A stretch of DNA of 18,544 nt, from positions 1-18,544 of IMG/VR virus record IMGVR_UViG_3300045988_133636; one strand, 5' to 3'. This stretch comes from a virus. Below are positions 1,546 through 18,544 of the stretch, piece after piece. The notes beneath the pieces were generated by a model. It was not told the origin of the DNA. It searched no databases and worked only from the letters and a program-made list of their open reading frames with translations. Position 1 is the stretch's first letter. Each line of letters starts with the position of its first letter. A program made the position numbers and the translations under genes.

Positions 1546-1731
1546 ATGGCTGTAAAACAAGGTGGAAAAATTGATTTAGGAAGTGTTGTGGGTCCTCAAG
1601 GTCCTAGAGGTGAAGCGGGTCCAGCGGGTCCAGCGGGTCCAGCGGGTGCTAAAGGAGATAAGGGAGATACGCCAAAATTTAGATTTACTGTTGAAGGTGG
1701 TCATTTATATATGGAGGAATTAACTGAATAA
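1546..1731 (+). CDS. Collagen-like protein 2 (61 aa, about 9 Gly-X-Y triplets)
   Basis: ATG at 1546, preceded by AGGAGGAG. This is in frame with track ORF 1486-1731, but the upstream part overlaps gene 1 and has no RBS. It contains GPQGPRGEAGPAGPAGPAGAKGDKGDT followed by FTVEGGHLYMEE, the same motif type as gene 1. Confidence 0.8.
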   Translation: MAVKQGGKIDLGSVVGPQGPRGEAGPAGPAGPAGAKGDKGDTPKFRFTVEGGHLYMEELTE

Positions 1732-2111
1732 TGGCTAAACATGATTTAGGCAATGTTCAAGGTCCAGCGGGTCCGATAGGTCCAATTGGTCCAATGGGTC
1801 CAGCGGGTCCTAGCGGTTTAACTGATATTAACACTGATAGAGAGGGTTTATTAGGCTCTATTGTGTTAGGTGAAAAAATATTAATCCAGTGGGGTTATTA
1901 TGCTATTACTAAAGGTGACGCATGGGAACGAATTAATATAAATAGACCATATAAAAACGGTAATTATAATGTACAAATATCTCCTTATTGGCGTGAGGAT
2001 TACCACGATATTTATTTAGGTGTAATTGAAACAGATGGTTTTAATGTGGCTTGTGTTGGTCAACCTAAAAATGAAATGGGTGTCTATTGGTTTACAATAG
2101 GCGAAATATAA
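1731..2111 (+). CDS. Collagen-like protein 3 with about 90-aa globular C-terminal domain (126 aa)
   Basis: The ATG overlaps the previous stop (TAATG). It contains [19 protein letters not shown] (6 triplets) followed by a non-repetitive domain. Confidence 0.8.
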   Translation: MAKHDLGNVQGPAGPIGPIGPMGPAGPSGLTDINTDREGLLGSIVLGEKILIQWGYYAITKGDAWERININRPYKNGNYNVQISPYWREDYHDIYLGVIETDGFNVACVGQPKNEMGVYWFTIGEI

Positions 2112-2114
2112 GAT

Positions 2115-2139
2115 AAGGGGGCATTGTCCCCCTTTGTTT
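2115..2139 (+). terminator. Hairpin, possibly a partial terminator, after the collagen genes
   Basis: AAGGGGG (2115-2121), loop CATTGT, CCCCCTT (2128-2134), then TGTTT. The T tract is interrupted, so read-through is likely. Confidence 0.45.
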
Positions 2140-2153
2140 AATGGAGGTAAAAA

Positions 2154-3947
2154 ATGAAAGATATATTAAATAAAATTGGTAAATGTAATGTTTCTTGTGA
2201 TTCTATTCGTTCTATATATCAATGGGATGGTTTAACATGGCAAGAATTAATCTGCAAAGTATTTGAAGGTGTTAATAACTGTATAGAAACCGTTAATAAA
2301 TACACTGGAATAATAGAAGAAGTTTTAAAATGGATAGCTAGTGAGGGTTTAGAAGAAGAAGTTAGAAAAGGCTTAGATAGAATAATTGAAGATGGCACAT
2401 TATCCGAAATTATTAATGGAGAAATTTTCGGTAATATTCAAGATAAGTTAAGAGAATTAGAAGGTTTAATCAATGAAAATAAAGAAGAAATAAAGGAAGT
2501 AAAATCTGAAATAGAAACATTAAAAAATGAAATATTAGAGGAAGTTAAAAAAGCTTTAAAAAACATTACTGAAAGAGTAGAAAAATTAGAAAACAAGCCC
2601 CAAACTACTCAATTTTTCATATTAAAAAACGCTGTAGATTATGGAGATTCAAGTATTATAAAAGCGGATGATGGTTCTTTTTCCATGATAGATTGTATGT
2701 GGGAAACAAACTGGGGGGCATTAGTGGAGCAATTAGAAAAGATTGGTGTTAAGAAATTAAAGTATTTATTTATCACTCATTTCCATAGTGACCACATAGG
2801 AAACGCCCCAGCGGTTATTAATAAATATAAACCTGATTATATTGTTTATAAATCAGGAATTGATTTTGATAGGTTACCCGCTGTTGAAAAAGAATGGGAC
2901 ACAAAAGGTTATTTTGAAAGAATGATACAAGCTTGTAAAGATAATGGAGTTCATGAAATAATAGCTGACGACCAAGAAATAAAAATCGGAATAAATGACA
3001 GTGTTCAATTATTTGGTTCTCACTTTTATGATTATAGTAATTTAAATGCAATGAGTGTAAACTATATGCTTAAATCTAAAGGAATTAAAGCGGTATTTCC
3101 AGGGGACAGTGCAAAAAGCACTGAATTAGCAATTAAGGATAAAGTAGGTAAAGTTGATTTTCTTAAATTATCTCACCACGGAGCGGATGGAGGTAATTCA
3201 GATGATTGGTTTAGTGTTTTACAGCCTGAATTTTGTATGATTAATAGGGTTGAACTTTATAAAATAGATATAGTTAAAAGTTTTGCTTTAAAAGCTATTA
3301 AATTCGGTGGTAAAGTTTATACTAACGATAATAATGATTTTTGTTCTTTTAATATTGATGATGGTTGTATTTACCCTACTTGTAAAGAATATCCATTCCC
3401 TTTACAGTTTTTAGATTACTGGGATGGGACTTATAAAATGACAGATACAACTGGAAAAATAGCGACAAAGGGAATTTACCCATACAAAACAGATTATTAT
3501 TTTGTTAAAGATAATGGATTTATTGCTCAAGGTCAATGGGTAAATTATCACGGTGTTGATTACTACGCAGATTCATCAGGAAGATTGGTAAGAAATGTTT
3601 TCATAGAGGGTACTGATAATGGTCACCCAGTTTGGTATTGGATTAATGAAAAATGCGAAATGGTTCTTGATTGGACATTTGTAAATTATAAAAATAATCT
3701 TTACATTATTAAAAATAATGGGATGATGTGTGATGATATGATAGTGGAATATCAAGGCGACCATTACAAGGCTACTAAGGGAGGTCCATTATTATTAAAT
3801 GATTGGTTTCAAGATGGTTCTGATTGGTATTATTTCAGATTTGATGGTCGAATGATTAAGAATAAAACATTAGTTATAAATGGGAAATGGTACACATTTG
3901 GTTCAGATGGGAAGTGTTCTAATCCTGATGGTGAACCAATAAGTTAA
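2154..3947 (+). CDS. Appendage/receptor-binding protein candidate: coiled coil + metallo-beta-lactamase-fold hydrolase + cell-wall-binding repeats (597 aa)
   Basis: GGAGG RBS. Residues about 60-150 are heptad-rich. It has an HFHSDH (HxHxDH) motif and a later LKLSHHGADGGNS signature typical of ComEC-type MBL hydrolases. The C-terminal 170 aa hold about seven 20-aa aromatic repeats (DYYFVKDNGFIAQGQW, VDYYADSSGRLVRN, DWYYFRFDGRMIKNKT, KWYTFGSDGKC) like CW_binding_1/choline-binding repeats. Confidence 0.8.
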   Translation: MKDILNKIGKCNVSCDSIRSIYQWDGLTWQELICKVFEGVNNCIETVNKYTGIIEEVLKWIASEGLEEEVRKGLDRIIEDGTLSEIINGEIFGNIQDKLRELEGLINENKEEIKEVKSEIETLKNEILEEVKKALKNITERVEKLENKPQTTQFFILKNAVDYGDSSIIKADDGSFSMIDCMWETNWGALVEQLEKIGVKKLKYLFITHFHSDHIGNAPAVINKYKPDYIVYKSGIDFDRLPAVEKEWDTKGYFERMIQACKDNGVHEIIADDQEIKIGINDSVQLFGSHFYDYSNLNAMSVNYMLKSKGIKAVFPGDSAKSTELAIKDKVGKVDFLKLSHHGADGGNSDDWFSVLQPEFCMINRVELYKIDIVKSFALKAIKFGGKVYTNDNNDFCSFNIDDGCIYPTCKEYPFPLQFLDYWDGTYKMTDTTGKIATKGIYPYKTDYYFVKDNGFIAQGQWVNYHGVDYYADSSGRLVRNVFIEGTDNGHPVWYWINEKCEMVLDWTFVNYKNNLYIIKNNGMMCDDMIVEYQGDHYKATKGGPLLLNDWFQDGSDWYYFRFDGRMIKNKTLVINGKWYTFGSDGKCSNPDGEPIS

Positions 3948-3950
3948 ATT

Positions 3951-3966
3951 TGTTTCACGTGAAACA
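3951..3966. promoter_or_regulatory. Perfect 16-bp palindrome TGTTTCACGTGAAACA, copy 1
   Basis: Exact palindrome starting 4 nt after the stop of 2154-3947. It is identical to copies at 3976, 9399 and 9425. Confidence 0.9.
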
Positions 3967-3975
3967 TTAATATTA

Positions 3976-3991
3976 TGTTTCACGTGAAACA
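3976..3991. promoter_or_regulatory. Perfect 16-bp palindrome TGTTTCACGTGAAACA, copy 2
   Basis: Exact repeat, 25 bp start-to-start from copy 1 and 20 nt upstream of the ATPase start codon. Confidence 0.9.
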
Positions 3992-4010
3992 TTAAAAGAA
4001 AGGAGTAATT

Positions 4011-5039
4011 ATGTATTTTGAATTAAAACCATATTTGGAAAAATACCCTAATAAATTTTATTACGCTTTTTTAGGTGGTAGAGGAACGGGAAAAAGTTTT
4101 GATATAAAGGATAATATATTTAATGATTTTATGGAAAAAGGAGAGCAGGCAATTGTATTAAGAAGGTATGTAAATCAGCTTGACGACATAAAAGAGAATT
4201 ACATGGATGATGTTATTTTAGAAAAATATCCTGATTTTATGAAGGATATTACTTATAAGCATGACGCTGTTTATTATCAGGACAAGCCTTTTATTTTCTT
4301 TATGGGATTAAATAGAAAAGGAGTAATGAAGGCGGGGGCTTTTCCTAAAGTTACTAAAATAGTTTATGAAGAATTTACCCCTCAAGCTGGTGAAAAATAT
4401 CTATCAAAGGAATATCAAAGATTGGAAACATTGGCAATCACTGTCGATAGATTTCAAGATAGAGTAACCTGTTTTCTTTTAGGTAATACAACTACTACCT
4501 ATAACCCAGTTTTTCAGGCTATGAAATGTTATCCACCACTTGATTTTTCTGTAAAAGAAAATAATGAAATAATGATTGCTAGGTTTCCAACTAATGAAGA
4601 ATTAGCTGAAAAACAAACTAATTCAAGGCTGGGGAGAGTAACAAAAAGGTCGGGAACATATTCATATAATATTCAAAATGAAAACTTGTCTAATGAAATG
4701 TTTAATGTAATACCTAAGAAAGAATTTTTTAAAATTCCTGAGGTTCAAAAGGATGTATTTAACCCAGTAATTACTTGTAAAATTGATGAAAATAAATATG
4801 TTAGATTATGGCAAGGAAATTCAAATATTTTATTTGTTGATATTACAAATAAAGCTTCAAATATTCAATGTTTTTATGATTTTGATTTCCAAAATAAAGA
4901 TAATGTGCATATCAGCATGATTGACCACCCAGTGCTAGAGGTTTTCACTTTTTTATATAAACAAGGTAGGGTATTTTTTAGTAATATTGAAGCTAAAACT
5001 TTCGGGGTACAAATATTTACATTTAATGACCCTATTTAA
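4011..5039 (+). CDS. DNA encapsidation (packaging) ATPase, phi29 gp16-like (342 aa)
   Basis: AGGAG RBS. Walker A is FLGGRGTGKS near the N-terminus and the Walker B-like segment is KIVYEEF. Size and layout match small-podovirus packaging ATPases. Confidence 0.8.
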   Translation: MYFELKPYLEKYPNKFYYAFLGGRGTGKSFDIKDNIFNDFMEKGEQAIVLRRYVNQLDDIKENYMDDVILEKYPDFMKDITYKHDAVYYQDKPFIFFMGLNRKGVMKAGAFPKVTKIVYEEFTPQAGEKYLSKEYQRLETLAITVDRFQDRVTCFLLGNTTTTYNPVFQAMKCYPPLDFSVKENNEIMIARFPTNEELAEKQTNSRLGRVTKRSGTYSYNIQNENLSNEMFNVIPKKEFFKIPEVQKDVFNPVITCKIDENKYVRLWQGNSNILFVDITNKASNIQCFYDFDFQNKDNVHISMIDHPVLEVFTFLYKQGRVFFSNIEAKTFGVQIFTFNDPI

Positions 5040-5068
5040 AAGCATGATAATTTTATCATGCTTTTTTC
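5038..5068 (+). terminator. Rho-independent terminator after the ATPase gene
   Basis: AGCATGAT (5041-5048) pairs with ATCATGCT (5055-5062), followed by TTTTTT (5063-5068). Confidence 0.8.
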
Positions 5069-5079
5069 TTTACTTAGTA

Positions 5080-5106
5080 TTGACATTATGTTATAATTAA
5101 TATAAC
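5080..5106 (+). promoter_or_regulatory. Possible promoter for the terminal protein-polymerase operon
   Basis: TTGACA (5080-5085). The best -10 is TATAAC (5101-5106) with a short 15-nt spacer. The position between the terminator and the next RBS fits. Confidence 0.5.
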
Positions 5107-5128
5107 GAATAAATGGAGGTTTTAAGTT

Positions 5129-6028
5129 ATGAGTAATAGAAATACAAGGAAACAGTATTATAATAGAGTTTATCAAGAATATCAAGTTAATGGCTGGGAT
5201 TTTGAGAAATTAGTTGGGAGATATAAACATGATACAATTATTAATAATCCTAATGCTTATGAGGTGTTTAAAAATAGAGTTATTAAAGACAGAAAGTTTA
5301 GAAAAGAAAGGGCAAAAATAGAAGAAGAATACAAACAAATTCAAGAAAAAAGTAAGAAACAAGGTTATGAAATAAGGCAAAAACAATATGAAGATATAGA
5401 CAGAAAAAAGATGATAAATGCGGAGAAAAAAGGATTTATCAATAAAAATAATGTATTTTTAAATAAGAAACAAGTTAAACAATTAAAAAATATTTATACG
5501 GAACATAAAGATTTATACAAAGTTTTTAAGGAAAAATTAATTGAAGATTACGGATTTAATAAAGATGATTTGGCATTATTGGAGGGGGAAATTTTACAAA
5601 GTAATAAGGGCAATACATTTCAATTACCTATTAATATTAAGGGATTCGAAAACTTTGAAAACTTATTAAATAGTTTTACATTACAGGGTAACGTGGATAA
5701 CCTAATTAAGATTTATAAAAAAGATGTTAAATCTTTAGAAGAAAATAGAATGACTATTAATGATAGAATAGAAGGAAAAGACTTTATAGATTTGTTTGAA
5801 CAATTACATGAGGATAGAGTTATCACTGAGGGTGAATTAATTGATTTAAAAAATATGATTGCACATACAAGGTTTACCACAAAAGAAGCTATTAGAAATC
5901 ATTTTGGGAAATTAACTAATCTAATAGAAAGTGACCCGCAAACGGGTGTTAAAATAAGGAATTATTATGCTACCTTAAAGAATTGGATAGTATTATTTGA
6001 TAAGGCTGATTATACAGTAAGAAGATAG
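5129..6028 (+). CDS. Putative terminal protein (299 aa)
   Basis: A basic, Lys-rich protein encoded immediately upstream of, and apparently co-transcribed with, the protein-primed polymerase. Its size is near phi29 TP (266 aa). The assignment is by position only; no sequence motif was recognised. Confidence 0.55.
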   Translation: MSNRNTRKQYYNRVYQEYQVNGWDFEKLVGRYKHDTIINNPNAYEVFKNRVIKDRKFRKERAKIEEEYKQIQEKSKKQGYEIRQKQYEDIDRKKMINAEKKGFINKNNVFLNKKQVKQLKNIYTEHKDLYKVFKEKLIEDYGFNKDDLALLEGEILQSNKGNTFQLPINIKGFENFENLLNSFTLQGNVDNLIKIYKKDVKSLEENRMTINDRIEGKDFIDLFEQLHEDRVITEGELIDLKNMIAHTRFTTKEAIRNHFGKLTNLIESDPQTGVKIRNYYATLKNWIVLFDKADYTVRR

Positions 6029-6040
6029 GAGATTTTTAAA

Positions 6041-8437
6041 ATGTTAAATTATAGTTATTATCAGGAAAATGTGAATAGTCAATTTAATTATATAATATCT
6101 AAAGTTAAAGAAAAAAGACTTGAGGAAATAAGAGAAGATATTTCTGAAAATCAACAAATATTAAATAATATTAAAGCTAATATAGATAAATATATATTAT
6201 TTGATGAAAAATTACCATATCCTGAAACACTAATAAAAACTAAAAAATCTTATTCCGCTGACTTAGAAACGACTACAAAAGTAAATGAAAATGGAGAAAT
6301 ATATACATTTGCTTATGCTTGTGGTTTTATGGAAGTTAATAAGAAAAATCAACTTATTCATAGTAATAATATTTCTGATTTTGTGGACAACCTAGAAAAT
6401 TTACCAGCCTTAAATTCAGAAATGTATTTTCATAATTTAACGTTCGACTTAACATTTATCTTAATTGAATTAATTAAACGTGGTTATGAACCTATTATAC
6501 CGCATTTTTTAGATATTGAAGAAATAAAAAATTGTAAAGTAACTGGTGATGGTACAGTAGATAAAGAATTATTTATAACTAAAGAAATGGATTATAAAAA
6601 TAAAGATATAAAACCATATTCATTTGATTATATTTTCGCTAATGGCTCATTTTATGAATGTACTATTTATTTTGATGAAAGAAGAATTTTAAAGAACGGA
6701 AAACATGAAACTGTTACAAAAAAATTAGTATTAAAAGATAGTTTAAAATTAGTTCCTTCAACTTTACAACAATTAGCTGACGGTTATTGTGGTTTAAAAT
6801 TATCTAAAGATGGTATTGACCATGATAAACAAAGACAAGAAGGAAAAGAACACATATTACACCATTCAGAAAAAATTTATTATTATGAAGATATATACGC
6901 ATTAAAAGAATTTATTAGAATTATGATTAAGGAAGGCGTTAATATATCAGGTGAAAATATTAAATTTGATAGAATGACATCAGCTAGTTTTGCATTTAAT
7001 CAATACAAAGAAAGTTTAAAAAAAGAATATGATAATTTTGTAAAATTAGGTGAATACCCTTCATGTGATGAATTTGTAGAAATATTTTCTGAGTTATCAT
7101 TAAAGTATGCTGACAGAAAAAATGGACCATCTAAGGAAAAAATATTCAGGGCTGTTTTTCCAGTTTTATCAGCTCAACAAGACGGATTTATAAGAGAAAG
7201 TTATTTCGGTGGAATAACAATGAAAAATAAAAGGTTATTAGCTGAATTAGAAGAAATTAATTATAAGGAAAATATTAATAAACAAAATAGTAATTTAGGT
7301 ATGTATGGGGTAACTTATGATGAAAATTCAATGTACCCTGATAAAATGAATAGGTCTTTATTACCTTATGGTAGACCCAAAAATTTTAATGGAAACTATG
7401 AGGATTTAGAAGATTCTATTAAATCAAAATATCCTTTATATATTCAGAAAATTAGAGTTAAATATTTTAACTTAAAACCTGATGGAATACCAATGCAACA
7501 ATTAAGAAACTCAGTCGACTTTAACGGTAGAGAATTTATAGAAAGTAATTATTGTGAAAAATATGATAATTATGTTACTTATACATTAGTTTTAACTAAC
7601 GTTCATTTAAAAGATTTTTTTAGAAATTATGAGGTTGACGGAATAGAATACTTAGGTGGTTTATGTTTTAAAGGTACTCATGGTTTATTTAAATCATTTA
7701 TTGAAAAATGGTATAAAATTAAACAAGAAAATAAAGGTGTTGTTAAATTAGTATCAAAGTTAATATTAAATTCTTGTTATGGTAAATTTGCAAGTAATCC
7801 TGTTCGTTCTTTCAGATTTATTAACTTAAATGATGATATTTTAGATGTATCTAAATATGATTACGAGGGGGAGGAAATAAACTATTTTGAAAGTTCTATT
7901 TATACCGCTGTAGGTTCTTTTATAACTTCTTACGCTAGAGAAGATTTATTACAGATGTTACACAATAATTTTGATAGATGGTTATATGCGGACACTGATT
8001 CTTGCCATTTATTGGGATTTGATGATGCAAAAGGGGACAAGCTAGACATTAACAACACTGGTGAATTAGGATTATGGAAAAGAGAATGTTATTTCTCAGA
8101 TTCTATCTTTTTAGGTGCTAAAAGATACGCTGAAAATGAAATTAAATCAAAAGAAAATTTAAAATTAAATAGTAAATGGGAAATAAAGTGTTGTGGGCTT
8201 CCAAAAAATATAATGTCAAAAATAGATATAAAATCATTTGGATTTATTGACCCCTCAATCAATGAGGATGAATTATTTACAAGTGATGATAAAGAAGATT
8301 ACCATTACTATAAAGATAAAAATTGCACTGAGAAAGTAGTTGGTATATGGCAAAGTAGAAAGAAAAAAAGTGTTAAAGGTGGGATAATAATTAAATCGCA
8401 ACCTTATAAATTAAATAGTGCTTTTTATTTAAGATAA
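6041..8437 (+). CDS. Protein-primed family-B DNA polymerase (798 aa)
   Basis: Motifs read directly: Exo I ADLETTT, Exo II YFHNLTFDL, Exo III YYYED, motif A DENSMYP, motif B KLILNSCYGKF, motif C YADTDS, and KxY GAKRYA. All parallel the phi29 gp2 motifs. Confidence 0.95.
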   Translation: MLNYSYYQENVNSQFNYIISKVKEKRLEEIREDISENQQILNNIKANIDKYILFDEKLPYPETLIKTKKSYSADLETTTKVNENGEIYTFAYACGFMEVNKKNQLIHSNNISDFVDNLENLPALNSEMYFHNLTFDLTFILIELIKRGYEPIIPHFLDIEEIKNCKVTGDGTVDKELFITKEMDYKNKDIKPYSFDYIFANGSFYECTIYFDERRILKNGKHETVTKKLVLKDSLKLVPSTLQQLADGYCGLKLSKDGIDHDKQRQEGKEHILHHSEKIYYYEDIYALKEFIRIMIKEGVNISGENIKFDRMTSASFAFNQYKESLKKEYDNFVKLGEYPSCDEFVEIFSELSLKYADRKNGPSKEKIFRAVFPVLSAQQDGFIRESYFGGITMKNKRLLAELEEINYKENINKQNSNLGMYGVTYDENSMYPDKMNRSLLPYGRPKNFNGNYEDLEDSIKSKYPLYIQKIRVKYFNLKPDGIPMQQLRNSVDFNGREFIESNYCEKYDNYVTYTLVLTNVHLKDFFRNYEVDGIEYLGGLCFKGTHGLFKSFIEKWYKIKQENKGVVKLVSKLILNSCYGKFASNPVRSFRFINLNDDILDVSKYDYEGEEINYFESSIYTAVGSFITSYAREDLLQMLHNNFDRWLYADTDSCHLLGFDDAKGDKLDINNTGELGLWKRECYFSDSIFLGAKRYAENEIKSKENLKLNSKWEIKCCGLPKNIMSKIDIKSFGFIDPSINEDELFTSDDKEDYHYYKDKNCTEKVVGIWQSRKKKSVKGGIIIKSQPYKLNSAFYLR

Positions 8438-8450
8438 TTTTTAAAAAGTA

Positions 8451-8479
8451 TTGACATTACCCCCAATTAATGATAACAT
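8451..8479 (+). promoter_or_regulatory. Extended -10 promoter
   Basis: TTGACA (8451-8456), then TGATAACAT (8471-8479), read as TG-n-TAACAT with a 17-nt spacer. The string TGATAACATATA is shared with the promoter at 9104. Confidence 0.65.
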
Positions 8480-8530
8480 ATAGTTAGTTGAAAAATAGGG
8501 GATTAATTCCCCTTTAAGGAGGTTTACAAA

Positions 8531-8827
8531 ATGAAAAGAAAAAAGATTACTGACGTTGAAAAAGAACTTGAGTTATTAGAAGTTAGATTAGATGTTTATT
8601 CATCATTAAAAAATGCTTTATTTGAATTAGGATTACAAGACTATTACGTCACTGATGATATAGAAGATTTAAATGACAGAATAGAAAAATCGAAATTATC
8701 TTGTCAACAAATTTGTTTAAATTTAAGGGAACAAATACCTAACATTGAAAGTAATGTGAAGTTTAGAAAACTTATTAAAAAACATAACTTTGAATATTAT
8801 TCATCCCATTTTAAAGGAGGATTTTAA
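8531..8827 (+). CDS. Hypothetical protein (98 aa)
   Basis: AAGGAGG RBS. A small AGGGGA/TCCCCT hairpin (8497-8513) lies in its leader. No motif recognised. Confidence 0.75.
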   Translation: MKRKKITDVEKELELLEVRLDVYSSLKNALFELGLQDYYVTDDIEDLNDRIEKSKLSCQQICLNLREQIPNIESNVKFRKLIKKHNFEYYSSHFKGGF

Positions 8828-8829
8828 AA

Positions 8830-9126
8830 TTGAATAAAAATGATAGATTAAAATTAATGAAGGTTTTTGATAATATTTGTAAAAACAATCAGTATGTTCA
8901 ACACTATAAAGGTTGTAGAATAATATCATATAATGACCCCGAACATGAAAATGTAATATTTCAATTTCATCATAATTGTAATGATTTTTGTTATGCACAT
9001 ACTTTTATTTTAAATGATTTTTATAATAATATTGATTTAGATTCTTTCATTGAATATTATAATTTAAGCTTAGAAATTTTTAGAGAAAAACTTCAAAATT
9101 ATATTGACAATAATCTTATAGTATGA
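8830..9126 (+). CDS. Hypothetical protein (98 aa, Cys/His-rich)
   Basis: TTG start 9 nt after GGAGG (8816-8820), coupled to the previous stop. No motif recognised. Confidence 0.65.
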   Translation: MNKNDRLKLMKVFDNICKNNQYVQHYKGCRIISYNDPEHENVIFQFHHNCNDFCYAHTFILNDFYNNIDLDSFIEYYNLSLEIFREKLQNYIDNNLIV

Positions 9127-9132
9127 TAACAT
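9104..9132 (+). promoter_or_regulatory. Extended -10 promoter inside the 3' end of the preceding ORF
   Basis: TTGACA (9104-9109), 17-nt spacer including TG (9124-9125), TAACAT (9127-9132). The -10 block TGATAACATATA is the same as at 8471. Confidence 0.6.
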
Positions 9133-9168
9133 ATAATTAAAGAAAGAGATAAATTGGAGGTAATTAAA

Positions 9169-9366
9169 ATGACAAATTGTGAAGTTGGATTTGAACAAAT
9201 TAAATTCTCATGTGAGAAAGGTAACAAACATGGAATGGATAAAAAAGGTTGGTTAGAATTATATGGAAAATGTAAGGTTTTAGAGTTTCAATGTTTCCAA
9301 GCTAGTGACCCAATAGTGTACAAAGTTCAATCATTAATAGAAGATATTGAAAAAGAAATATTATAA
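9169..9366 (+). CDS. Hypothetical protein (65 aa)
   Basis: The ATG at 9169 has GGAGG (9156-9160) 8 nt upstream. The track start at 9154 is a TTG lying inside that RBS. Confidence 0.7.
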   Translation: MTNCEVGFEQIKFSCEKGNKHGMDKKGWLELYGKCKVLEFQCFQASDPIVYKVQSLIEDIEKEIL

Positions 9367-9395
9367 AAAAGGAGGGAAAATTTTCCCTCCTTTTT
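9365..9395. terminator. Bidirectional rho-independent terminator where the two arms converge
   Basis: AAAAAAGGAGGGAAAA pairs with TTTTCCCTCCTTTTT. A-run and T-run flanks give a U tract on both strands. Confidence 0.85.
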
Positions 9396-9398: not shown

Positions 9399-9414
9399 TG
9401 TTTCACGTGAAACA
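9399..9414. promoter_or_regulatory. Perfect 16-bp palindrome TGTTTCACGTGAAACA, copy 3
   Basis: Exact copy immediately after the bidirectional terminator. Confidence 0.9.
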
Positions 9415-9424: not shown

Positions 9425-9440
9425 TGTTTCACGTGAAACA
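9425..9440. promoter_or_regulatory. Perfect 16-bp palindrome TGTTTCACGTGAAACA, copy 4
   Basis: Exact copy, 26 bp from copy 3, ending 1 nt before the endolysin stop codon (9442-9444). An extra half-site GTGAAACA lies at 9455-9462. Confidence 0.9.
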
Positions 9441-10249: not shown

Positions 10250-10984
10250 TTACATAAATAACATAAATAAGTTTTCGCATTCTTCAAGATACATTTCAAA
10301 AATATTTATTAATACACTTCTCCATTTTTCTAATAATTCTGCTGAACTTGTTACACCTATGTTACCCTGAGAAATTAACTCAGTTTTTTCCAATTCTTTT
10401 CCCTTTTCATCTTCTTTTAATTTACCATTTGTTACAGAATTACTTGTATTGGTAGATGTATTTTTTGATGTGTTAGTAGAGTTTGAATTTGCTGTTATAT
10501 TTTCAATATTTTCATTTGTAATATAACCTTCACCTACTCTTGCTAAGGCTCCATCAATAGAACTTTCTTTACCATTGGATGAAGAGGAACTATTTTCCTT
10601 ATTCAGTATTTCATTTAATGTATCATCATTTGATTTTAAATTATTTTCATTTTCATTAAGTTGATTTTTATTATTTTCAGTTTGTAACTCTCTGATAAAA
10701 GTTTCTTTTAAATCCTTATTTAATAAGAAATCAATTTTTTTAGAAGCAAGTTCTGTTTCATATAATTGCTTATAATATGGGGCTATTCTATTAAGTGTAG
10801 CCATTAATCTTTGTTGGAATCTTCTTACAGTTTCAAAACCTATTTCATGAAAATAAAAATGTTCAATAAATCTCTGTTCAAAAACTCCTTTTAAATCTTC
10901 ATCTATAAAGTCATATGGAAAAGCAAAAATATTAAAATTCGGGTCTTCTGCTAAATATCTGAGTTCTAACGTGAATTTACTCAT
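10250..10984 (-). CDS. Lower collar protein, phi29 gp11-like (244 aa)
   Basis: I prefer the ATG at 10984, which has an AGGTGA RBS and overlaps the portal stop by 8 nt, over the track start at 11017. The N-terminal FHEIGFETVRRFQQRL..IAPYYKQLY block resembles lower-collar proteins of phi29-like phages, as recalled from memory. The gene lies directly after the portal gene. The centre is an S/N/T-rich low-complexity segment. Confidence 0.65.
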   Translation of the reverse strand: MSKFTLELRYLAEDPNFNIFAFPYDFIDEDLKGVFEQRFIEHFYFHEIGFETVRRFQQRLMATLNRIAPYYKQLYETELASKKIDFLLNKDLKETFIRELQTENNKNQLNENENNLKSNDDTLNEILNKENSSSSSNGKESSIDGALARVGEGYITNENIENITANSNSTNTSKNTSTNTSNSVTNGKLKEDEKGKELEKTELISQGNIGVTSSAELLEKWRSVLINIFEMYLEECENLFMLFM

Positions 10985-11897
10985 GTATTTCTTCACCTTC
11001 TCCTTTTTCAAATTCATTTTTTTCTTGTGGAGGGTCTAATAAATCCCTAACTTTTATTACTGAAATATCTAAACCAAACATTTCATTAATTTTTTTACAA
11101 GCTTCTTTTCTCATTTTATAAGCGACATCAAGGTTATTTAAAATATAACCATTATTAATGTTAACTTCATCCACTAACAATCTTTCTCTTTTATCCTGAT
11201 TAGAGTTGTTATTTATTCCTAAAACATCTAATAAATCACTTTCAATTTCATGTTTTGCTTCATTTAATTTATCGATTAAAAACTCTGCTTTAGTATTTAA
11301 AACTTCTATTATAAAATCGTCTTTTCTTTTATTTCCTAAGCCCTTATCTTGTAGAATATATTCGTCACGTTCAATCATTTCCATAAATTTCTGAGCTGAA
11401 AGTTGCATATCTTTAGTTGTGTTTATAATGTAAGGTCGTCTTTGTTGTTTAGTATTTAATTTAATTGTTTTATCTATTTCAGAAATTAATTCTGTAAAAT
11501 GGTAAACATGATTAATAATAGGGTATCTTAAATCATTTTCAAATATTGGTACCCCCTCATCAACGTTTTTAGTTTCATTAATTCCGTTGAATCCGTAAGT
11601 AGTATAATCCACCCAATCTCCGTAAACATCAGGTGTATTTATTCCATAAGCTGGTAAACATCTAAACACCCCCGATTTATCTTTAAAAAACATTGCGACA
11701 CCAGTTAAATATAAAGCCTGTTCAATATGTCTACTTTCAACACCTTCGGGTAAATTCTCCCATCTGAACCTATTCATTGCTAAAGTTTGATATTGGTTTA
11801 ATAATCTAAACCAGTTAAAGTTATCTATGCAACAAGTCATATTTCCACGACCCGTTGCAACTAATAAATTATGAAATCCTGATGTTGTACTACTCAT
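10977..11897 (-). CDS. Upper collar / portal (connector) protein, phi29 gp10-like (306 aa)
   Basis: It contains NRFRWENLPEGVESRHIEQALYLTGVAMFF and PDVYGDW blocks typical of phi29-family connectors. Size is close to phi29 gp10 (309 aa). Confidence 0.8.
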   Translation of the reverse strand: MSSTTSGFHNLLVATGRGNMTCCIDNFNWFRLLNQYQTLAMNRFRWENLPEGVESRHIEQALYLTGVAMFFKDKSGVFRCLPAYGINTPDVYGDWVDYTTYGFNGINETKNVDEGVPIFENDLRYPIINHVYHFTELISEIDKTIKLNTKQQRRPYIINTTKDMQLSAQKFMEMIERDEYILQDKGLGNKRKDDFIIEVLNTKAEFLIDKLNEAKHEIESDLLDVLGINNNSNQDKRERLLVDEVNINNGYILNNLDVAYKMRKEACKKINEMFGLDISVIKVRDLLDPPQEKNEFEKGEGEEIHE

Positions 11898-15135: not shown

Positions 15136-16221
15136 TTATTCTGTTGTTGTAAAAACAACCGCTGGGGCATATAAACAACCAGCAAAAATTCCTTCTCTAT
15201 TTGCAAAATGGTTTGTGTATTGTCCATCAGGATTAAAGAAACTTCCGCCACCATTCCAAGTGTCCCATATTTGTAAAAATTCCTTATCCATTAAAACACC
15301 AAGTATTTTTTTACCTGAGTATTTAGTTTTTGAAACTGGTATTTCATCCACATGAATTATTGAATAAGCTATTTCAGATTTATCAAGATTGAAAACATAA
15401 GCTAAGGTATTTACGTCAATTTTTGCTTCTACGTCAGGGGTAGTGATAAACACTAAATCTTCCCTATTTACCCAGTTTTCTACTTTAGCCATATTATACT
15501 TATCAGATGGAAATTCCATTAATCCAGCGGTTGCCCTAATTTGTTCTAATAACTCTTTTTGGTCCGTGTTGTAATTAGGTATTTCTATCTCTTTAACATC
15601 TTGTTTCTTAGCTGTTATATCTTCCTCGGATATTACATTAGTAACAGTATCTAACTTCTTACCTGATATTAACGCCCCTATTAAATTTTTTGTCATTTTA
15701 AATTCCATTTTTTCAAGTCCATTCTGTAAACTTGTTGTAATAGAATTTATTAATCTTTGTAATCCACCCTCAGTGTAGAAAGCTTTTTTCATATCTTTAA
15801 CCATAATAGTTATTTTAGATTTCTTATCATAGTTAGTTGTAATATAAAGCACTTCAACTTTAGGTTTAATCTTTCTGATTAAATCAGCTTCGGGTGTGTT
15901 TCCATCACCCCAGTGTTCAGTAAAATTCTTTACTTGAGCGTCAAAAACAAATTGCATTTCTAACCCATCACCATTTTCAAGGTAACCTCTTTTTAATTTT
16001 TTAAGAGGATTTGTAAAGTTCTTTGAGTAAACTCTAGGTAAAACATATTTATTAGTTAAAGTTTCAACAAAAGAGTTTAAAGTTGTTGGCATTTCTGTTA
16101 CAATATCAGCTAATCTTTTTAAACCTTCCATGTCTAATTTAGCTGGTACAGATATACCTCTTTTTTCTAAATCCTCACGCATTGGTTCAAGGACTTCGCT
16201 ATTTTTTACTACTTCAGCCAT
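15136..16221 (-). CDS. Major capsid protein (361 aa)
   Basis: AGGAGG RBS. It lies immediately downstream of a small acidic coiled-coil scaffold gene. Size and position are as for phi29 gp8-type capsid proteins. No diagnostic motif can be read by eye. Confidence 0.7.
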   Translation of the reverse strand: MAEVVKNSEVLEPMREDLEKRGISVPAKLDMEGLKRLADIVTEMPTTLNSFVETLTNKYVLPRVYSKNFTNPLKKLKRGYLENGDGLEMQFVFDAQVKNFTEHWGDGNTPEADLIRKIKPKVEVLYITTNYDKKSKITIMVKDMKKAFYTEGGLQRLINSITTSLQNGLEKMEFKMTKNLIGALISGKKLDTVTNVISEEDITAKKQDVKEIEIPNYNTDQKELLEQIRATAGLMEFPSDKYNMAKVENWVNREDLVFITTPDVEAKIDVNTLAYVFNLDKSEIAYSIIHVDEIPVSKTKYSGKKILGVLMDKEFLQIWDTWNGGGSFFNPDGQYTNHFANREGIFAGCLYAPAVVFTTTE

Positions 16222-16232: not shown

Positions 16233-16490
16233 CTATAATCTTTTTAATATATCATCATAAGTCACTACCTTTTCAGGTGCTTCTTTTGATTGCGTTTCTT
16301 GAGTGTTAAAATTTCCTCTTTCATATAGAACCTTATAAGCATTTTCTAATTCTATTTTTTCTTTTTTTAATTTAGCAATTTCAGAATCTCTCTCTATTAA
16401 ATCCCTTGTTAAAGTTTCAATATTAGTATTGTTATCACCTTTATTTTCAGGATTATTTGTATTATTTTCTTGACCCTTGTTATCTTCCAT
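16233..16490 (-). CDS. Scaffolding protein (85 aa)
   Basis: I prefer the ATG at 16490, which has AGGAGGTG upstream, over the track start at 16517, which lies inside the structured leader. The protein is small, acidic and helical/coiled-coil and sits directly upstream of the capsid gene. Confidence 0.65.
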   Translation of the reverse strand: MEDNKGQENNTNNPENKGDNNTNIETLTRDLIERDSEIAKLKKEKIELENAYKVLYERGNFNTQETQSKEAPEKVVTYDDILKRL

Positions 16491-16514
16491 ATTTAACACC
16501 TCCTTATATATAAC

Positions 16515-16595
16515 CACTAGGGGGGTAGTAGCAAACTACCCGAGCAATGTGTGGCGGTTTCACCCGTGCTACCCACTTTTAATCATTCCCTAGTG
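16515..16595 (-). ncRNA. Candidate structured RNA (three-way junction), possibly a pRNA-like packaging RNA or leader element
   Basis: Closing helix CACTAGGG (16515-16522) / CCCTAGTG (16588-16595). Hairpin GGGTAGT (16523-16529) / ACTACCC (16535-16541). Third arm GTGG (16551-16554) / CCAC (16573-16576) plus CGG (16555-16557) / CCG (16564-16566) with a 6-nt bulge. 42 of 81 bases are G/C. The strand is inferred from the adjacent minus-strand promoter. Confidence 0.5.
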
Positions 16596-16609
16596 AAGTT
16601 ACCAAAATT

Positions 16610-16650
16610 AAAAGCATGAGAAAAAGATTACCTCTTTAACTCATGCTTTT
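16610..16650 (-). terminator. Long hairpin with U tract between the early right operon and the structured leader
   Basis: AAAAGCATGAG (16610-16620) pairs with CTCATGCTTTT (16640-16650). An inner AAAGA/TCTTT helix is possible. On the minus strand it is followed by TTTTAATTTT. Its 5' arm abuts the -10 box of the capsid promoter. Confidence 0.6.
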
Positions 16651-16679
16651 ATTATAACATATTGTTAACAAATTGTAAA
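16651..16679 (-). promoter_or_regulatory. Near-consensus extended -10 promoter for the scaffold-capsid-tail operon
   Basis: Minus strand reads TTTACA (16679-16674), 17-nt spacer ending in TGT, TATAAT (16656-16651). Confidence 0.8.
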
Positions 16680-16682
16680 CAC
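16663..16682. promoter_or_regulatory. Copy 2 of the conserved 20-nt element, overlapping the -35 and spacer of the capsid promoter
   Basis: TGTTAACAAATTGTAAACAC. It contains the 10-bp palindrome TTGTTAACAA. Related boxes TTATTAACAA (16685-16694) and TTGTTCACAA (16706-16715) follow at roughly 20-bp spacing. Confidence 0.6.
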
Positions 16683-16701
16683 TTTATTAACAAATTATTC
16701 A

Positions 16702-17355
16702 CTATTTGTTCACAATTAGTTCATCTATTAAATTTTGGATTAATGTTTTCATGCACTCAGGTGCGTTTTGGTCAATTAATAAATTTAGCTTTTTATCTAA
16801 ATATTGCCTTATTATTTCATCCTCAGATTGACAACACTCATGTATTACCATTAAGAGTACCTCATTTAACCATTCTAATTCACTAATTCTTTCTTCACCT
16901 ACTGAAATAGAATCTCTCATAAATTCTAATGAGTGTAAATTCATATCTCTTTCAAACTTTAATTTTTCTATTGAGTTAACTAACTCTTTCTTTTCTACTG
17001 ATGATTTATTAAGTTCTTCTTTAGTTAAATTATACTTATCAAACCAGTAATCACTAGCCTTTTTCTTCACCTCATACATTTCTGATAAAGCATCCAATCG
17101 GCTTTTAAGTTCTTCGTTTTTATGTTTTAAACTTTCAACTTGCTTTTCCATAAAACTAATTACACTGTCTTTTTCTCTAATTTCTTCTCTCATTTTACCG
17201 TTAAATTCATTTAAGAAATTAGCTTGTCTTTTCCACTTATCTTTTCTTACTTCTAATTGACAAATTTCTTCCCTTAAATCAATGTTTTCCTTTATTGTTT
17301 CATTTAACATTTCCCTTGTTTTTCCTAATCCTCTACCACCTATATTAAACTTCAT
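16702..17355 (-). CDS. Coiled-coil protein with N-terminal Walker-A-like GGRGLGKT (217 aa)
   Basis: I prefer the ATG at 17355, which has a GAGAGGAAAAGG RBS and overlaps the upstream stop, over the TTG at 17376. Most of the protein is heptad-rich. Function unknown. Confidence 0.7.
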   Translation of the reverse strand: MKFNIGGRGLGKTREMLNETIKENIDLREEICQLEVRKDKWKRQANFLNEFNGKMREEIREKDSVISFMEKQVESLKHKNEELKSRLDALSEMYEVKKKASDYWFDKYNLTKEELNKSSVEKKELVNSIEKLKFERDMNLHSLEFMRDSISVGEERISELEWLNEVLLMVIHECCQSEDEIIRQYLDKKLNLLIDQNAPECMKTLIQNLIDELIVNK

Positions 17356-17734
17356 TTTCCTTTTCCTCTCTTTCAATTAATCTTAATAAAAACTGATTAG
17401 CCTTCTTTAAATCCTCAATTCCGTTTTTATCTCTCCATCTTGTTACATATTTAATAATACTACCTTCTAAAAAATCCATTCCCCAACTATCGGTATAGTC
17501 CCATGTTTCAATACCTCTTTTATAATGTTTAGGTGTAATTGGTGTATCAGGTAATTCGCCCTCAGGTCCTTTAGGGTCATAATGACCTTCTACATATTTA
17601 TTTGAATAATAATCCTCATTCATAGCATTGCAACAAGTATCAGCGTAAATTCTACTATTAAAAACATGAATAACATTATCCTTATCGTCATATATTGCAT
17701 AATCACAGCAAAAACTTTCTACTCTATACTTCAT
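17345..17734 (-). CDS. DUF3310-like phage protein (129 aa)
   Basis: ATG at 17734 after TAGGAGG. The block PKHYKRGIETWDYTDSWGMDFLEGSIIKYVTRWRDKNGIEDLKKA resembles the DUF3310 family, as recalled from memory. Confidence 0.6.
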   Translation of the reverse strand: MKYRVESFCCDYAIYDDKDNVIHVFNSRIYADTCCNAMNEDYYSNKYVEGHYDPKGPEGELPDTPITPKHYKRGIETWDYTDSWGMDFLEGSIIKYVTRWRDKNGIEDLKKANQFLLRLIEREEKENEV

Positions 17735-18439: not shown

Positions 18440-18459
18440 TGTTAACAAAATGTAAATAT
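18440..18459. promoter_or_regulatory. Copy 3 of the conserved 20-nt element, between the right ITR and the right early promoter
   Basis: TGTTAACAAAATGTAAATAT. Same orientation as copies 1 and 2. On the minus strand it lies just upstream of the -35 box. Confidence 0.55.
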
Positions 18460-18466
18460 TAAGACC

Positions 18467-18544
18467 AATTTCCATAGAAATAATTACGTCATTTCCACCA
18501 CCCCATTGGGGGAAAAAATAAAAAATGAGTACACCCCCTATTAC
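18467..18544. repeat. Right inverted terminal repeat (78 bp)
   Basis: Exact reverse complement of 1-78. Confidence 0.97.

What the first reader, a model, noticed from the sequence alone, without database searches (positions are those of the whole stretch)
16515..16650. Three-way-junction RNA with complementary bulge and hairpin loops next to the capsid promoter: candidate pRNA
A 211-nt non-coding gap (16491-16701) separates the early right operon from the scaffold gene. Within it, 16515-16595 is about 52% G+C (42 of 81 by hand count) in a genome that looks roughly 70% A+T.

It folds into three helices around one junction:
- 8-bp closing helix, 16515-16522 with 16588-16595.
- 7-bp hairpin, 16523-16529 with 16535-16541, 5-nt loop.
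- Bipartite arm, 16551-16557 with 16564-16576, carrying a 6-nt bulge.

On the minus-strand RNA the bulge reads GUAGCA and the hairpin loop reads UUGCU, so AGCA can pair with UGCU.

Established knowledge: phi29-family packaging motors use a pRNA built on a three-way junction. Its ring is closed by pairing between an internal/bulge loop and a hairpin loop. This genome has the gp16-like ATPase and the connector, but no other pRNA candidate is visible.

Differences from phi29: the locus is not at a genome end, and the element is shorter unless the upstream hairpin (16610-16650) is part of it. It could instead be a translational or stability leader for the scaffold/capsid mRNA.
Basis: partly seen in the sequence, partly recalled or inferred. 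Interest (0 to 1): 0.85.

Follow-up and report, generated by a model that had tools for sequence, protein, structure and literature searches.

The report
Candidate packaging RNA in Clostridium phage
A small folded RNA encoded just upstream of the head genes of this Clostridium perfringens phage has the same architecture as the phi29 "prohead RNA" that drives DNA packaging, an RNA so far reported almost only from Bacillus phages; its function here is inferred and has not been tested.

Summary
Two further helices exist: P1ext and P2.0.

Across 13 homologues from at least five Guelinviridae genera and two gut contigs, 28 of 31 base pairs show compensatory changes and 94% of cells are paired.

The four bulge nucleotides next to the inner helix are complementary to the hairpin loop. 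This pairing covaries between lineages:
- window type: AGCA/UGCU
- L100 and L097: GCUA/UAGC
- CpV1: CGCA/UGCG
- CPS1: GUCA/UGAC
- phiCPV4: GCCA/UGGC

The layout matches phi29 pRNA helix for helix, including the position of the pairing nucleotides. Covariance models built only from the Clostridium elements rank the true pRNAs first in the phi29, B103 and DLc1 genomes. Those scores (14-19 bits) are no higher than the best chance hits in three control genomes. Rfam RF00044 does not match the element, and also misses the B103 and GA1 pRNAs at its gathering score.

The phage encodes gp16-type ATPase and gp10-type connector homologues and has inverted terminal repeats. Papers held in the searchable library place pRNA almost only in Bacillus phages.

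Verdict: probably a divergent pRNA, encoded next to the late promoter. Packaging function, ring formation and transcript ends are untested.

The parts
16651..16679 (-). Sigma-70-type promoter TTTACA-17-TATAAT with TG extended -10. The predicted transcription start is near 16644-16646.
   Evidence: 11 of 12 matches, TG present. Conserved in phiQ, CPD7, susfortuna and LPCPA6. The start site is inferred, not mapped.
16610..16650 (-). Hairpin with flanking A and U runs, terminator-like. It is likely the terminator of the upstream operon and/or the 5'-terminal stem-loop of transcripts from the promoter.
   Evidence: The stem sequence differs but pairing is kept in phiQ-type and LPCPA6. It is absent from the phiCPV4, CPS1 and L100 loci, so it is not part of the conserved core.
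16509..16603 (-). Conserved three-way-junction RNA core (candidate pRNA), 95 nt.
   Evidence: R1 hit of 113.9 bits. Covariation.
16588..16602 (-). 5' strand of helix A: P1ext GUAAC 16602-16598, UU bulge 16597-96, P1 CACUAGGG 16595-16588.
   Evidence: Pairs with 16510-16522. All 13 pairs show both-side changes on alignment A7.
16573..16587 (-). 5' strand of the C-like arm: P2.0 AAUG 16587-84, internal loop AUUAAAA 16583-77, P2a GUGG 16576-73.
   Evidence: The loop AUUAAAA is invariant in the window type, LPCPA6 and L100.
16567..16572 (-). 5'-side bulge GUAGCA. Its last four nucleotides, AGCA, are complementary to the P3 loop. It corresponds to the CE / right-hand loop of phi29 pRNA.
   Evidence: AGCA is invariant in the window-type sequences while the first two bulge nucleotides vary (GU, AU, AC).
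16555..16566 (-). E-like hairpin: P2b CGG/CCG with hexaloop GUGAAA (16563-16558).
   Evidence: The loop is GURRAA in nearly all Guelinviridae elements examined; one CpV1-like contig has UUAGAA. The DLc1 pRNA has the same GUGAAA loop.
16542..16554 (-). 3' strands of P2a (CCAC 16554-51) and P2.0 (CAUU 16549-46), then the junction strand GCUC 16545-42.
16523..16541 (-). D-like hairpin P3 (7 bp) with loop UUGCU 16534-16530. It corresponds to the D / left-hand loop of phi29 pRNA.
   Evidence: Loop complementarity.
16510..16522 (-). 3' strand of helix A: CCCUAGUG 16522-15, then GUUAU 16514-10.
16233..16504 (-). SD AGGAGG (16504-16499) and an 85-aa scaffold-position gene (ATG 16490). This is the first late gene, 5 nt downstream of helix A.
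   Evidence: It lies directly upstream of the major capsid gene 15136-16221. The scaffold role is inferred from position only.
4011..5039 (+). gp16-type packaging ATPase, the presumed partner of helix A.
   Evidence: Pfam Podovirus_Gp16, E = 3e-17.
10977..11897 (-). gp10-type connector (portal), the presumed docking site.
   Evidence: Pfam Phage_connector, E = 5e-41.

Best explanation
The element is the Guelinviridae counterpart of the phi29 prohead/packaging RNA (pRNA).

What is shown here: the structure, its conservation, the covariation of the loop pairing, the architectural match to pRNA, and the presence of the motor proteins.
- The minus-strand RNA 16603-16509 folds into a three-way junction.
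- Helix A (P1 plus P1ext) is formed by the 5' and 3' segments.
- A C/E-like arm carries a 5'-side bulge and a GUGAAA hexaloop.
- A D-like hairpin closes the junction.

What is inferred by analogy with phi29:
- The C/E/D end binds the portal vertex of the prohead.
- The bulge AGCA pairs with the loop UGCU of a neighbouring copy, closing a ring.
- Helix A docks the gp16-type ATPase so that the terminal-protein-capped genome can be packaged.
- The RNA leaves the mature virion.

Expression in this genome, also inferred: the RNA is transcribed from the promoter at 16679-16651, at the head of the late scaffold-capsid transcript. How a discrete RNA would be released is unknown; processing and partial termination are both possible.
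For: Structure:
- On 5 sequences, 31 pairs are 97% paired and 13 show both-side changes. Slid controls give 0-3.
- On 13 sequences from at least 5 genera, 94.2% of cells are paired, 28 of 31 pairs show both-side changes, and there are 112 compensatory cells. No shuffle of 500 reaches this. Slid controls are 36-53% paired.
- G-U pairs fix the minus strand as the RNA strand.

Conserved locus: structured elements occur at the same place in phiCPV4, CPS1 and CpV1 (z = -5.2, -6.5, -4.4).

Detection by the models:
- CpV1: 23.8 bits (R1).
- L100: 50 bits (R1).
- L097: 29.7 bits (R2).
- phiCPV4: 28.1 bits (R3).

Loop pairing:
- The last 4 bulge nucleotides are complementary to the P3 loop in 6 of the 7 lineages tested.
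- Five different sequences are used: AGCA, GCUA, CGCA, GUCA, GCCA.
- Uniform chance is 0.008-0.035 per lineage.
- A conservative composition-preserving test gives Fisher p = 0.011 on the 5 lineages not chosen for complementarity, and 1.3e-5 on all 8.
- In phi29 the pairing AACC sits at the same position, immediately 5' of the E helix.

Topology: the Rfam RF00044 structure line for phi29 (A helix, C helix, 5' bulge, 4-bp E helix, 6-nt loop, 3-nt junction, D hairpin, 0-nt junction) matches the element helix for helix.

Cross-detection: models built only from Clostridium elements rank the real pRNAs first in whole-genome, both-strand, unfiltered scans.
- B103: 19.1, 19.5 and 17.3 bits.
- phi29: 16.9, 15.4 and 14.5 bits.
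- DLc1: 17.0 bits, inside the annotated ncRNA.
- The chance that a top hit lands there is about 0.003 per genome.

Sequence similarity: the DLc1 pRNA and the CPS1 element share CACGGU(GA/AG)AACGUGCC at the equivalent E hairpin (local alignment p = 0.003 before correction for 28 comparisons).

Context:
- Gp16 and connector homologues are present.
- The inverted terminal repeats are at least 60 nt.
- In phiCPV4 a -10 box lies just upstream of helix A. In L097 a TATAAT box does too, but no -35 was found.
- In L097 the element precedes an amidase gene, not the scaffold gene.
Against: - No experiment bears on this element: no transcript map, no prohead RNA, no packaging assay.
- Rfam RF00044 gives no match, even at E <= 10 on short stretches. 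It also misses the B103 and GA1 pRNAs at its gathering score.
- The cross-family bit scores of 14-19 are no higher than the best chance hits in P68, Cp-1 and asccphi28 (16.8, 16.4 and 14.8 bits, in coding DNA). Only the positional coincidence carries weight. That could partly reflect that the pRNA is the only strongly structured RNA in those genomes.
- The GA1 pRNA and any VMY22 pRNA were not detected.
- LPCPA6 has only 3 complementary nucleotides (ACC/GGU).
- In this genome no terminator separates the element from the scaffold SD, so a discrete RNA is not evident.
- Sequence alone cannot tell intermolecular from intramolecular loop pairing.
- Helix A is only 13 bp here, against about 25 bp in phi29.
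- The covariation counts come from alignments fitted to the model.
Confidence: 0.68

Rival explanations
1. The element is a cis-acting 5' leader of the late scaffold-capsid mRNA. The folded three-way junction, locked by an intramolecular bulge-loop contact, would protect the message from 5' decay, tune translation, or bind a phage regulator. It would have no role in the packaging motor.
For: - In the window the element lies between the promoter and the scaffold SD, with only 5 nt and no terminator in between.
- It precedes the scaffold gene in the window type, LPCPA6, phiCPV4, CPS1, CpV1 and L100.
- A three-way junction with two side-by-side arms of similar height could make the contact within one molecule. 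This last point is inference.
Against: - The SD is never sequestered.
- The distance from helix A to the SD varies from about 5 to about 55 nt, with extra hairpins in phiCPV4 and CpV1.
- In L097 the next gene is an amidase.
- In the fold-only candidates L099 and L013 a canonical terminator follows the element.
- This reading does not explain the helix-for-helix match to pRNA, nor the top-ranked pRNA hits in three Bacillus phage genomes.
Confidence: 0.2
2. The element is a ligand-sensing riboswitch or another regulatory small RNA unrelated to packaging.
For: It is a conserved three-way junction with invariant unpaired nucleotides (AUUAAAA, GUGAAA) in one subgroup.
Against: - No Rfam family matches.
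- There is no alternative terminator or anti-terminator, and no SD-masking pairing.
- The unpaired nucleotides are not conserved across genera. AUUAAAA is absent from CPS1, CpV1 and phiCPV4.
- The element was found only in phi29-like podovirus genomes.
Confidence: 0.05
3. There is no specific function: a G+C-rich patch that folds by chance, or only a terminator and promoter region.
For: Both strands fold well. The neighbouring hairpin at 16610-16650 is terminator-like.
Against: Of 31 pairs, 28 show compensatory changes across sequences whose primary sequence has diverged beyond MAFFT alignment. The loop complementarity also covaries.
Confidence: 0.02

Closest known systems
phi29-family prohead/packaging RNA (pRNA; Rfam RF00044 'Phage_pRNA'), including the B103 pRNA
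   Same: - Three-way junction whose closing helix A is made of the 5' and 3' segments.
- A C arm with a 5'-side bulge directly preceding a short E helix with a 6-nt loop.
- No unpaired nucleotides opposite the bulge.
- A 3-4-nt junction strand, then the D hairpin, then a 0-nt junction back into helix A.
- A 4-nt Watson-Crick match between the last bulge nucleotides and the D loop.
- Encoded by a small protein-primed podovirus with gp16 and gp10 homologues.
   Different: - No RF00044 match.
- Helix A is 13 bp rather than about 25 bp.
- The C arm is interrupted by a 7-nt internal loop.
- The E loop is GURRAA instead of UUGAGU.
- The gene sits on the late-gene strand immediately upstream of the scaffold gene, with no terminator of its own. 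The phi29 pRNA is an early transcription unit near the left end (promoter A1 annotated).
- The host is Clostridium and the family is Guelinviridae.
pRNA of the Bacillus cereus phage DLc1 (annotated ncRNA 189-353)
   Same: - The same GUGAAA hexaloop on a short E helix.
- A C arm split into two short helices by a small internal loop.
- The stretch CACGGUGAAACGUGCC is nearly identical to CPS1 CACGGUAGAACGUGCC.
- It is the top R3 hit in that genome.
   Different: It lies at the left genome end, with a 165-nt annotated RNA that includes a second domain. I did not find a simple 4-nt bulge/loop match at the fixed position.
GA1 pRNA (annotated 1719-1879)
   Same: It is internal to the genome rather than terminal, lying between operons. 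A non-terminal location is therefore not foreign to pRNAs.
   Different: It has its own annotated promoter and terminator. None of my models detected it.
Three-way-junction leaders with loop-loop tertiary contacts, such as purine riboswitch aptamers (named from general knowledge, not tested here)
   Same: A closing helix with two side-by-side arms joined by a few Watson-Crick pairs. This is the model for the intramolecular rival.
   Different: There is no Rfam match, no expression platform, and the contact is bulge-to-loop rather than loop-to-loop.

Membership tests
Phage pRNA (phi29-type prohead RNA) | Scores at or above the Rfam RF00044 gathering threshold (100 bits). | tested here: not met
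   There is no RF00044 match in the window or in six homologous loci, even at E <= 10. The model finds phi29 at 145 bits but also misses the accepted B103 and GA1 pRNAs at its gathering score. This feature therefore defines the Rfam seed group rather than pRNAs in general.
Phage pRNA (phi29-type prohead RNA) | Secondary structure: helix A from the 5'/3' ends, a three-way junction, a C-E arm with a 5'-side bulge and a 6-nt E loop, and a D hairpin. | tested here: met
   The structure is supported by covariation. It corresponds helix for helix to the RF00044 structure line.
Phage pRNA (phi29-type prohead RNA) | Complementary right-hand (CE bulge) and left-hand (D loop) sequences that covary among relatives. 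| tested here: met
   Six of the 7 lineages tested have a 4-nt match at the fixed bulge position, using 5 different sequences. LPCPA6 has 3 nt.
Phage pRNA (phi29-type prohead RNA) | The loop pairing is intermolecular and closes an RNA ring on the prohead. | not testable with these tools
   This needs native gels or AUC of the RNA, compensatory two-mutant complementation, or cryo-EM.
Phage pRNA (phi29-type prohead RNA) | Detectable sequence and structure similarity to accepted pRNAs. | tested here: inconclusive
   Models R1-R3 rank the pRNAs first in the phi29, B103 and DLc1 genomes. The scores of 14-19 bits equal the best chance hits in control genomes. GA1 and VMY22 are not detected, and the reverse search with RF00044 fails.
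Phage pRNA (phi29-type prohead RNA) | The genome encodes a gp16-type ATPase and a gp10-type connector, and is a linear genome with inverted terminal repeats. | tested here: met
   Pfam Podovirus_Gp16 at 3e-17 and Phage_connector at 5e-41. Terminal repeats of at least 60 nt. The terminal protein itself was not identified here.
Phage pRNA (phi29-type prohead RNA) | A discrete RNA of about 120-174 nt with its own promoter and terminator. | tested here: inconclusive
   A promoter is present, but no terminator lies before the scaffold gene in the window. In phiCPV4 a -10 box abuts helix A. In L097 a TATAAT box does, with a U-rich tract after the helix. The fold-only candidates L099 and L013 have a terminator.
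Phage pRNA (phi29-type prohead RNA) | Bound to proheads, required for DNA packaging, and absent from virions. | not testable with these tools
   This can only be tested experimentally.
Riboswitch / cis-regulatory leader | An expression platform: alternative pairing that masks the SD or forms a terminator downstream of the aptamer. | tested here: not met
   The SD is unpaired in the folds. Spacing to the SD is variable. No Rfam cis-regulatory family reaches threshold.

The most novel reading that the evidence does not exclude
In Guelinviridae the packaging RNA is not a separate early gene. It is the 5' leader of the late scaffold-capsid message. The motor RNA would then be made by processing of the structural-gene mRNA, or would act while still attached to it, tying motor assembly to late expression. 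Its presence in a second phage family would mean that RNA-dependent packaging is ancestral to phi29-like podoviruses. It may then have been overlooked in relatives currently described as lacking a pRNA.
Probability: 0.3. Interest if true: 0.88.

Novelty: new member of a known kind. Interest (0 to 1): 0.78.

Why it matters
pRNA is the only RNA known to be an essential part of a viral DNA-packaging motor.

What the papers I could search say:
- Reviews describe pRNA as unique to phi29 and related Bacillus phages (PMC11476376, PMC5066667).
- A 2025 structure-based survey added 12 pRNAs. All the phages named in the passages I read are Bacillus phages, and the paper never mentions Clostridium (PMC12670572).
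- An old, unconfirmed proposal exists for Cp-1 (cited in PMC6266182).

A second, deeply diverged pRNA lineage would help in several ways:
It would also show which are dispensable, such as a long helix A or an early promoter.
- It would bear on whether the RNA is ancestral to this phage group.
- It would give a new system for motor structure work. A phiCPV4 portal structure already exists (PMC8703570).
- It would supply new self-assembling three-way-junction scaffolds for RNA nanotechnology.
- It would correct annotations that place ORFs or promoters over the RNA.

Tried and rejected
- Rfam at gathering and at E <= 10, on the window and on six short homologous loci, gave only chance hairpin hits and no RF00044 match.
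- MAFFT across genera (A4) misaligned the helices. I used model-based alignments instead.
- R1 with default filters found only close relatives. Its weak hits in L063 and L076 lie inside an ORF and were rejected.
- The R3 hits in L042, L043 and L121 lie inside the capsid gene and were rejected.
- A strict structural descriptor found the element in all C. perfringens podovirus loci, with few weak extras.
- A relaxed fixed-position version gave 181 hits in 508 kb and is too permissive to use as evidence.
- The L099 and L013 elements fit the architecture and have a terminator (L099 also a promoter), but the models do not detect them. I treat them as candidates only.
- Scans of P68, Cp-1 and asccphi28 gave only coding-region hits. 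These served as the noise control.
- The promoter that the susfortuna record places inside the element would exclude the 5' strands of covarying helices. I take it to be a false prediction.
- The MFE pairing of the middle arm is not conserved in LPCPA6 and was rejected.
- A tRNA-like fold seen by eye in L098 was not called by ARAGORN.
- The 1996 Cp-1 genome paper could not be read.

Full report
**What the window is**

- The 18,544-bp window is a complete linear genome. The inverted terminal repeats are identical over at least 60 nt.
- It is 96-97% identical to the Clostridium perfringens podoviruses vB_CP_qdyz_P5, CP1 and DCp1. It is about 83% identical to phiQ, CPD7 and susfortuna, which belong to Guelinviridae, genus Susfortunavirus.
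- Genes on the plus strand run 214-9366. Genes on the minus strand run from 18376 down to 9442.
- Pfam identifies a gp16-type packaging ATPase at 4011-5039 (E = 3e-17) and a gp10-type connector at 10977-11897 (E = 5e-41).
- The major capsid gene is 15136-16221 on the minus strand. An 85-aa gene in the scaffold position starts at ATG 16490 with SD AGGAGG at 16504-16499.

**Checking the observation**

- The gap 16491-16701 is 211 nt.
- 16515-16595 is 51.9% G+C (42 of 81), in a genome of 28.9%.
- The gap folds better than all 200 shuffles on both strands (z = -5.6 and -6.0).
- The minimum-free-energy fold draws the middle arm differently.

**Anatomy on the minus strand, 5' to 3'**

1. An inverted repeat at 16693-16662 overlaps a strong sigma-70-type promoter, TTTACA-17-TGTTATAAT, at 16679-16651.
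2. A 41-nt hairpin at 16650-16610 has flanking A and U runs.
3. P1ext, GUAAC (16602-16598).
4. A UU bulge.
5. P1, CACUAGGG (16595-16588).
6. P2.0, AAUG (16587-16584).
7. The internal loop AUUAAAA.
8. P2a, GUGG (16576-16573).
9. The bulge GUAGCA (16572-16567).
10. P2b, CGG.
11. The hexaloop GUGAAA (16563-16558).
12. The return strands CCG, CCAC, A and CAUU.
13. The junction strand GCUC.
14. P3, GGGUAGU / UUGCU / ACUACCC (16541-16523).
15. P1', CCCUAGUG (16522-16515).
16. P1ext', GUUAU (16514-16510).
17. Five nucleotides later, the SD.

**Is it a real structured RNA?**

- The homologous gap from phiQ, CPD7, susfortuna and LPCPA6 aligns well, and every helix shows compensatory changes.
- On a 5-sequence alignment, 31 pairs are 97.4% paired and 13 pairs changed on both sides. 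No shuffle of 500 matches this, and partner-slid controls give 0-3 such pairs.
- Much more distant Guelinviridae have no detectable sequence similarity here. They still carry a strongly structured element at the same place, upstream of the scaffold-position gene (z = -5.2, -6.5 and -4.4):
  - phiCPV4 (Brucesealvirus)
  - CPS1 (Gregsiragusavirus)
  - CpV1 (Capvunavirus)
- Iterated covariance models linked these elements:
  - R1, built from the window type plus LPCPA6, finds CpV1 at 23.8 bits and the gut contig L100 at 50 bits.
  - R2 finds L097 at 29.7 bits.
  - R3 finds phiCPV4 and phiZP2 at 28 and 23 bits.
- On the resulting 13-sequence alignment:
  - 94.2% of cells are paired, against 36-53% when partners are slid.
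  - 28 of 31 pairs show both-side changes.
  - There are 112 compensatory cells.
  - No shuffle of 500 matches.
- That alignment is fitted to the model, so the numbers lean towards the structure. The independent MAFFT alignment of the closer set gives the same answer.
- Numerous G-U pairs would be A-C mismatches on the other strand. The RNA strand is therefore the minus strand.

**The bulge-loop complementarity**

The four bulge nucleotides immediately 5' of P2b are the reverse complement of four nucleotides in the P3 loop:

| Lineage | Bulge | P3 loop |
|---|---|---|
| window type | AGCA | UGCU |
| L100 and L097 | GCUA | UAGC |
| CpV1 type | CGCA | UGCG |
| CPS1 type | GUCA | UGAC |
| phiCPV4 type | GCCA | UGGC |

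- LPCPA6 has only three pairing nucleotides, ACC with GGU.
- Within the window type the first two bulge nucleotides vary (GU, AU, AC) while AGCA is invariant.
- The uniform chance of such a fixed-position match is 0.008-0.035 per lineage.
- A deliberately conservative test shuffles each bulge and loop while keeping composition.
  - It gives Fisher p = 0.011 for the five lineages that were not selected with complementarity in mind.
  - It gives 1.3e-5 for all eight lineages.

**Comparison with pRNA**

Running Rfam on phi29 gives the RF00044 structure line. It shows helix A, a 1-nt junction, a C helix, a 9-nt 5'-side bulge, a 4-bp E helix, a 6-nt loop, return strands with nothing opposite the bulge, a 3-nt junction, a D hairpin with a 5-nt loop, and a 0-nt junction back into helix A.

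The Clostridium element has the same order and sidedness. Its junction strands are 0, 4 and 0 nt. In phi29 the pairing nucleotides AACC also sit directly 5' of the E helix.

Models trained only on the Clostridium elements were run without filters over whole Bacillus phage genomes, both strands. They place the true pRNA first, aligned helix for helix:

| Genome | Coordinates (minus strand) | Bits |
|---|---|---|
| B103 | 187-279 | 19.1 / 19.5 / 17.3 |
| phi29 | 215-310 | 16.9 / 15.4 / 14.5 |
| DLc1 | 253-342 (inside annotated ncRNA 189-353) | 17.0 |

- The DLc1 E hairpin is CACG-GUGAAA-CGUG. That is the window's hexaloop and almost CPS1's exact sequence.
- The chance that a random top hit falls on the pRNA is about 0.003 per genome.

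**Limits of that evidence**

- The same R3 scan of P68, Cp-1 and asccphi28 gives best hits of 16.8, 16.4 and 14.8 bits in coding DNA.
- The cross-family scores are therefore at noise level. Only the repeated positional coincidence is informative.
- That coincidence could partly reflect that pRNA is the only strongly folded RNA in those genomes.
- The GA1 pRNA, and whatever VMY22 has, are not found.
- RF00044 does not find the Clostridium elements. It also misses the B103 and GA1 pRNAs at its gathering score.

**Expression**

- In the window the only good promoter lies upstream of the 16650-16610 hairpin. The RNA would start within the 5' arm of that hairpin and run on into the scaffold gene, since no terminator intervenes.
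- Other lineages look more like a self-contained RNA whose ends pair:
  - In phiCPV4 a TTGCAA-18-TATATT promoter ends just upstream of helix A.
  - In L097 a TATAAT box lies about 7 nt before a 14-bp helix A. A U-rich tract follows the helix, and the next gene is an amidase rather than the scaffold gene. No -35 box was found there.
- Two further gut contigs have elements with the same architecture and 5-nt loop complementarity, but the models do not detect them:
  - L099 has a consensus-like promoter 5 nt upstream and a canonical terminator downstream.
  - L013 has a terminator.
- The GA1 record shows that a pRNA gene need not be at a genome end.

**Literature**

- Reviews state that pRNA is known only from phi29 and related Bacillus phages (PMC11476376, PMC5066667).
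- The paper describing phiCPV4, phiZP2 and phiCP7R mentions pRNA only as the partner of the ATPase (PMC3362512).
- A 2025 Infernal-based survey reported 12 new pRNAs. All the phages named in the passages I read are Bacillus phages, and the paper never mentions Clostridium (PMC12670572).
- asccphi28 is described as lacking evidence for a pRNA (PMC7823558).
- One paper cites the 1996 Cp-1 genome paper for a Cp-1 pRNA that their model could not identify reliably (PMC6266182). I could not read the 1996 paper.
- I found no description of this Clostridium element. This is limited to the papers held in the searchable library.

**Conclusion**

The finding is a genuine, conserved, covarying three-way-junction RNA. 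By architecture and by the behaviour of its two complementary loops it is most likely a divergent pRNA of Guelinviridae (confidence about 0.68).

The main rival is a cis-acting leader of the late mRNA with an intramolecular contact (about 0.2). It cannot be excluded for this genome.

Function in packaging, ring formation and transcript ends all need experiments.

Noticed in passing
window 3951-3966, 3976-3991, 9399-9414, 9425-9440: The perfect 16-bp palindrome TGTTTCACGTGAAACA occurs four times, as two tandem pairs in intergenic DNA. One pair lies just upstream of the gp16-like ATPase gene. The other lies where the two gene arms converge. Only 0.01 occurrences are expected by chance. It looks like the operator of a phage DNA-binding protein.
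   Followed up: partly
window 16662-16693: The inverted repeat TTGTTAA...TTAACAA overlaps the -35 box and spacer of the promoter that precedes the RNA. It is conserved in relatives and may be a regulator binding site controlling late or pRNA transcription.
   Followed up: no
window 1-60 and 18485-18544: The two genome ends are identical inverted repeats over at least 60 nt. This is much longer than the 6-nt repeats annotated for phi29.
   Followed up: partly
window 16702-17376 (minus strand): The 224-aa protein encoded just upstream of the RNA has coiled-coil-type hits. It also has a sub-threshold match of its N-terminus to Podovirus_Gp16 (E = 0.006, 16.5 bits).
   Followed up: no
L132 38-160 (CPS2 NC_048707 1337-1459); L001 17180-17211 (susfortuna): Public records place a 40-aa 'hypothetical protein' over the RNA in CPS2, and a predicted promoter inside it in susfortuna. 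Both conflict with the covariation-supported helices.
   Followed up: partly
L140 (Cp-1) 18445-18537, minus strand: The best R3 hit in Cp-1 (16.4 bits) is a long bulged helix (z = -2.9) inside the annotated orfb, near the right genome end. Cp-1 was proposed in 1996 to have a pRNA, and I could not check where.
   Followed up: partly
L099 1137-1316 and L013 2458-2598: Two gut-metagenome phi29-like contigs carry, upstream of the scaffold gene, a pRNA-like three-way junction with 5-nt bulge/loop complementarity (GACUA/UAGUC and GCUAA/UUAGC). Each is followed by a canonical terminator, and L099 also has a near-consensus promoter. The covariance models do not detect either element.
   Followed up: partly
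L098 about 1345-1405: The fold contains a cloverleaf-like stretch ending in CCACCA upstream of the scaffold gene. ARAGORN does not call a tRNA there.
   Followed up: partly
window 9366-9395: A symmetric G+C-rich hairpin with A and T runs on either side lies where the two convergent gene arms meet. It is a likely bidirectional terminator.
   Followed up: no
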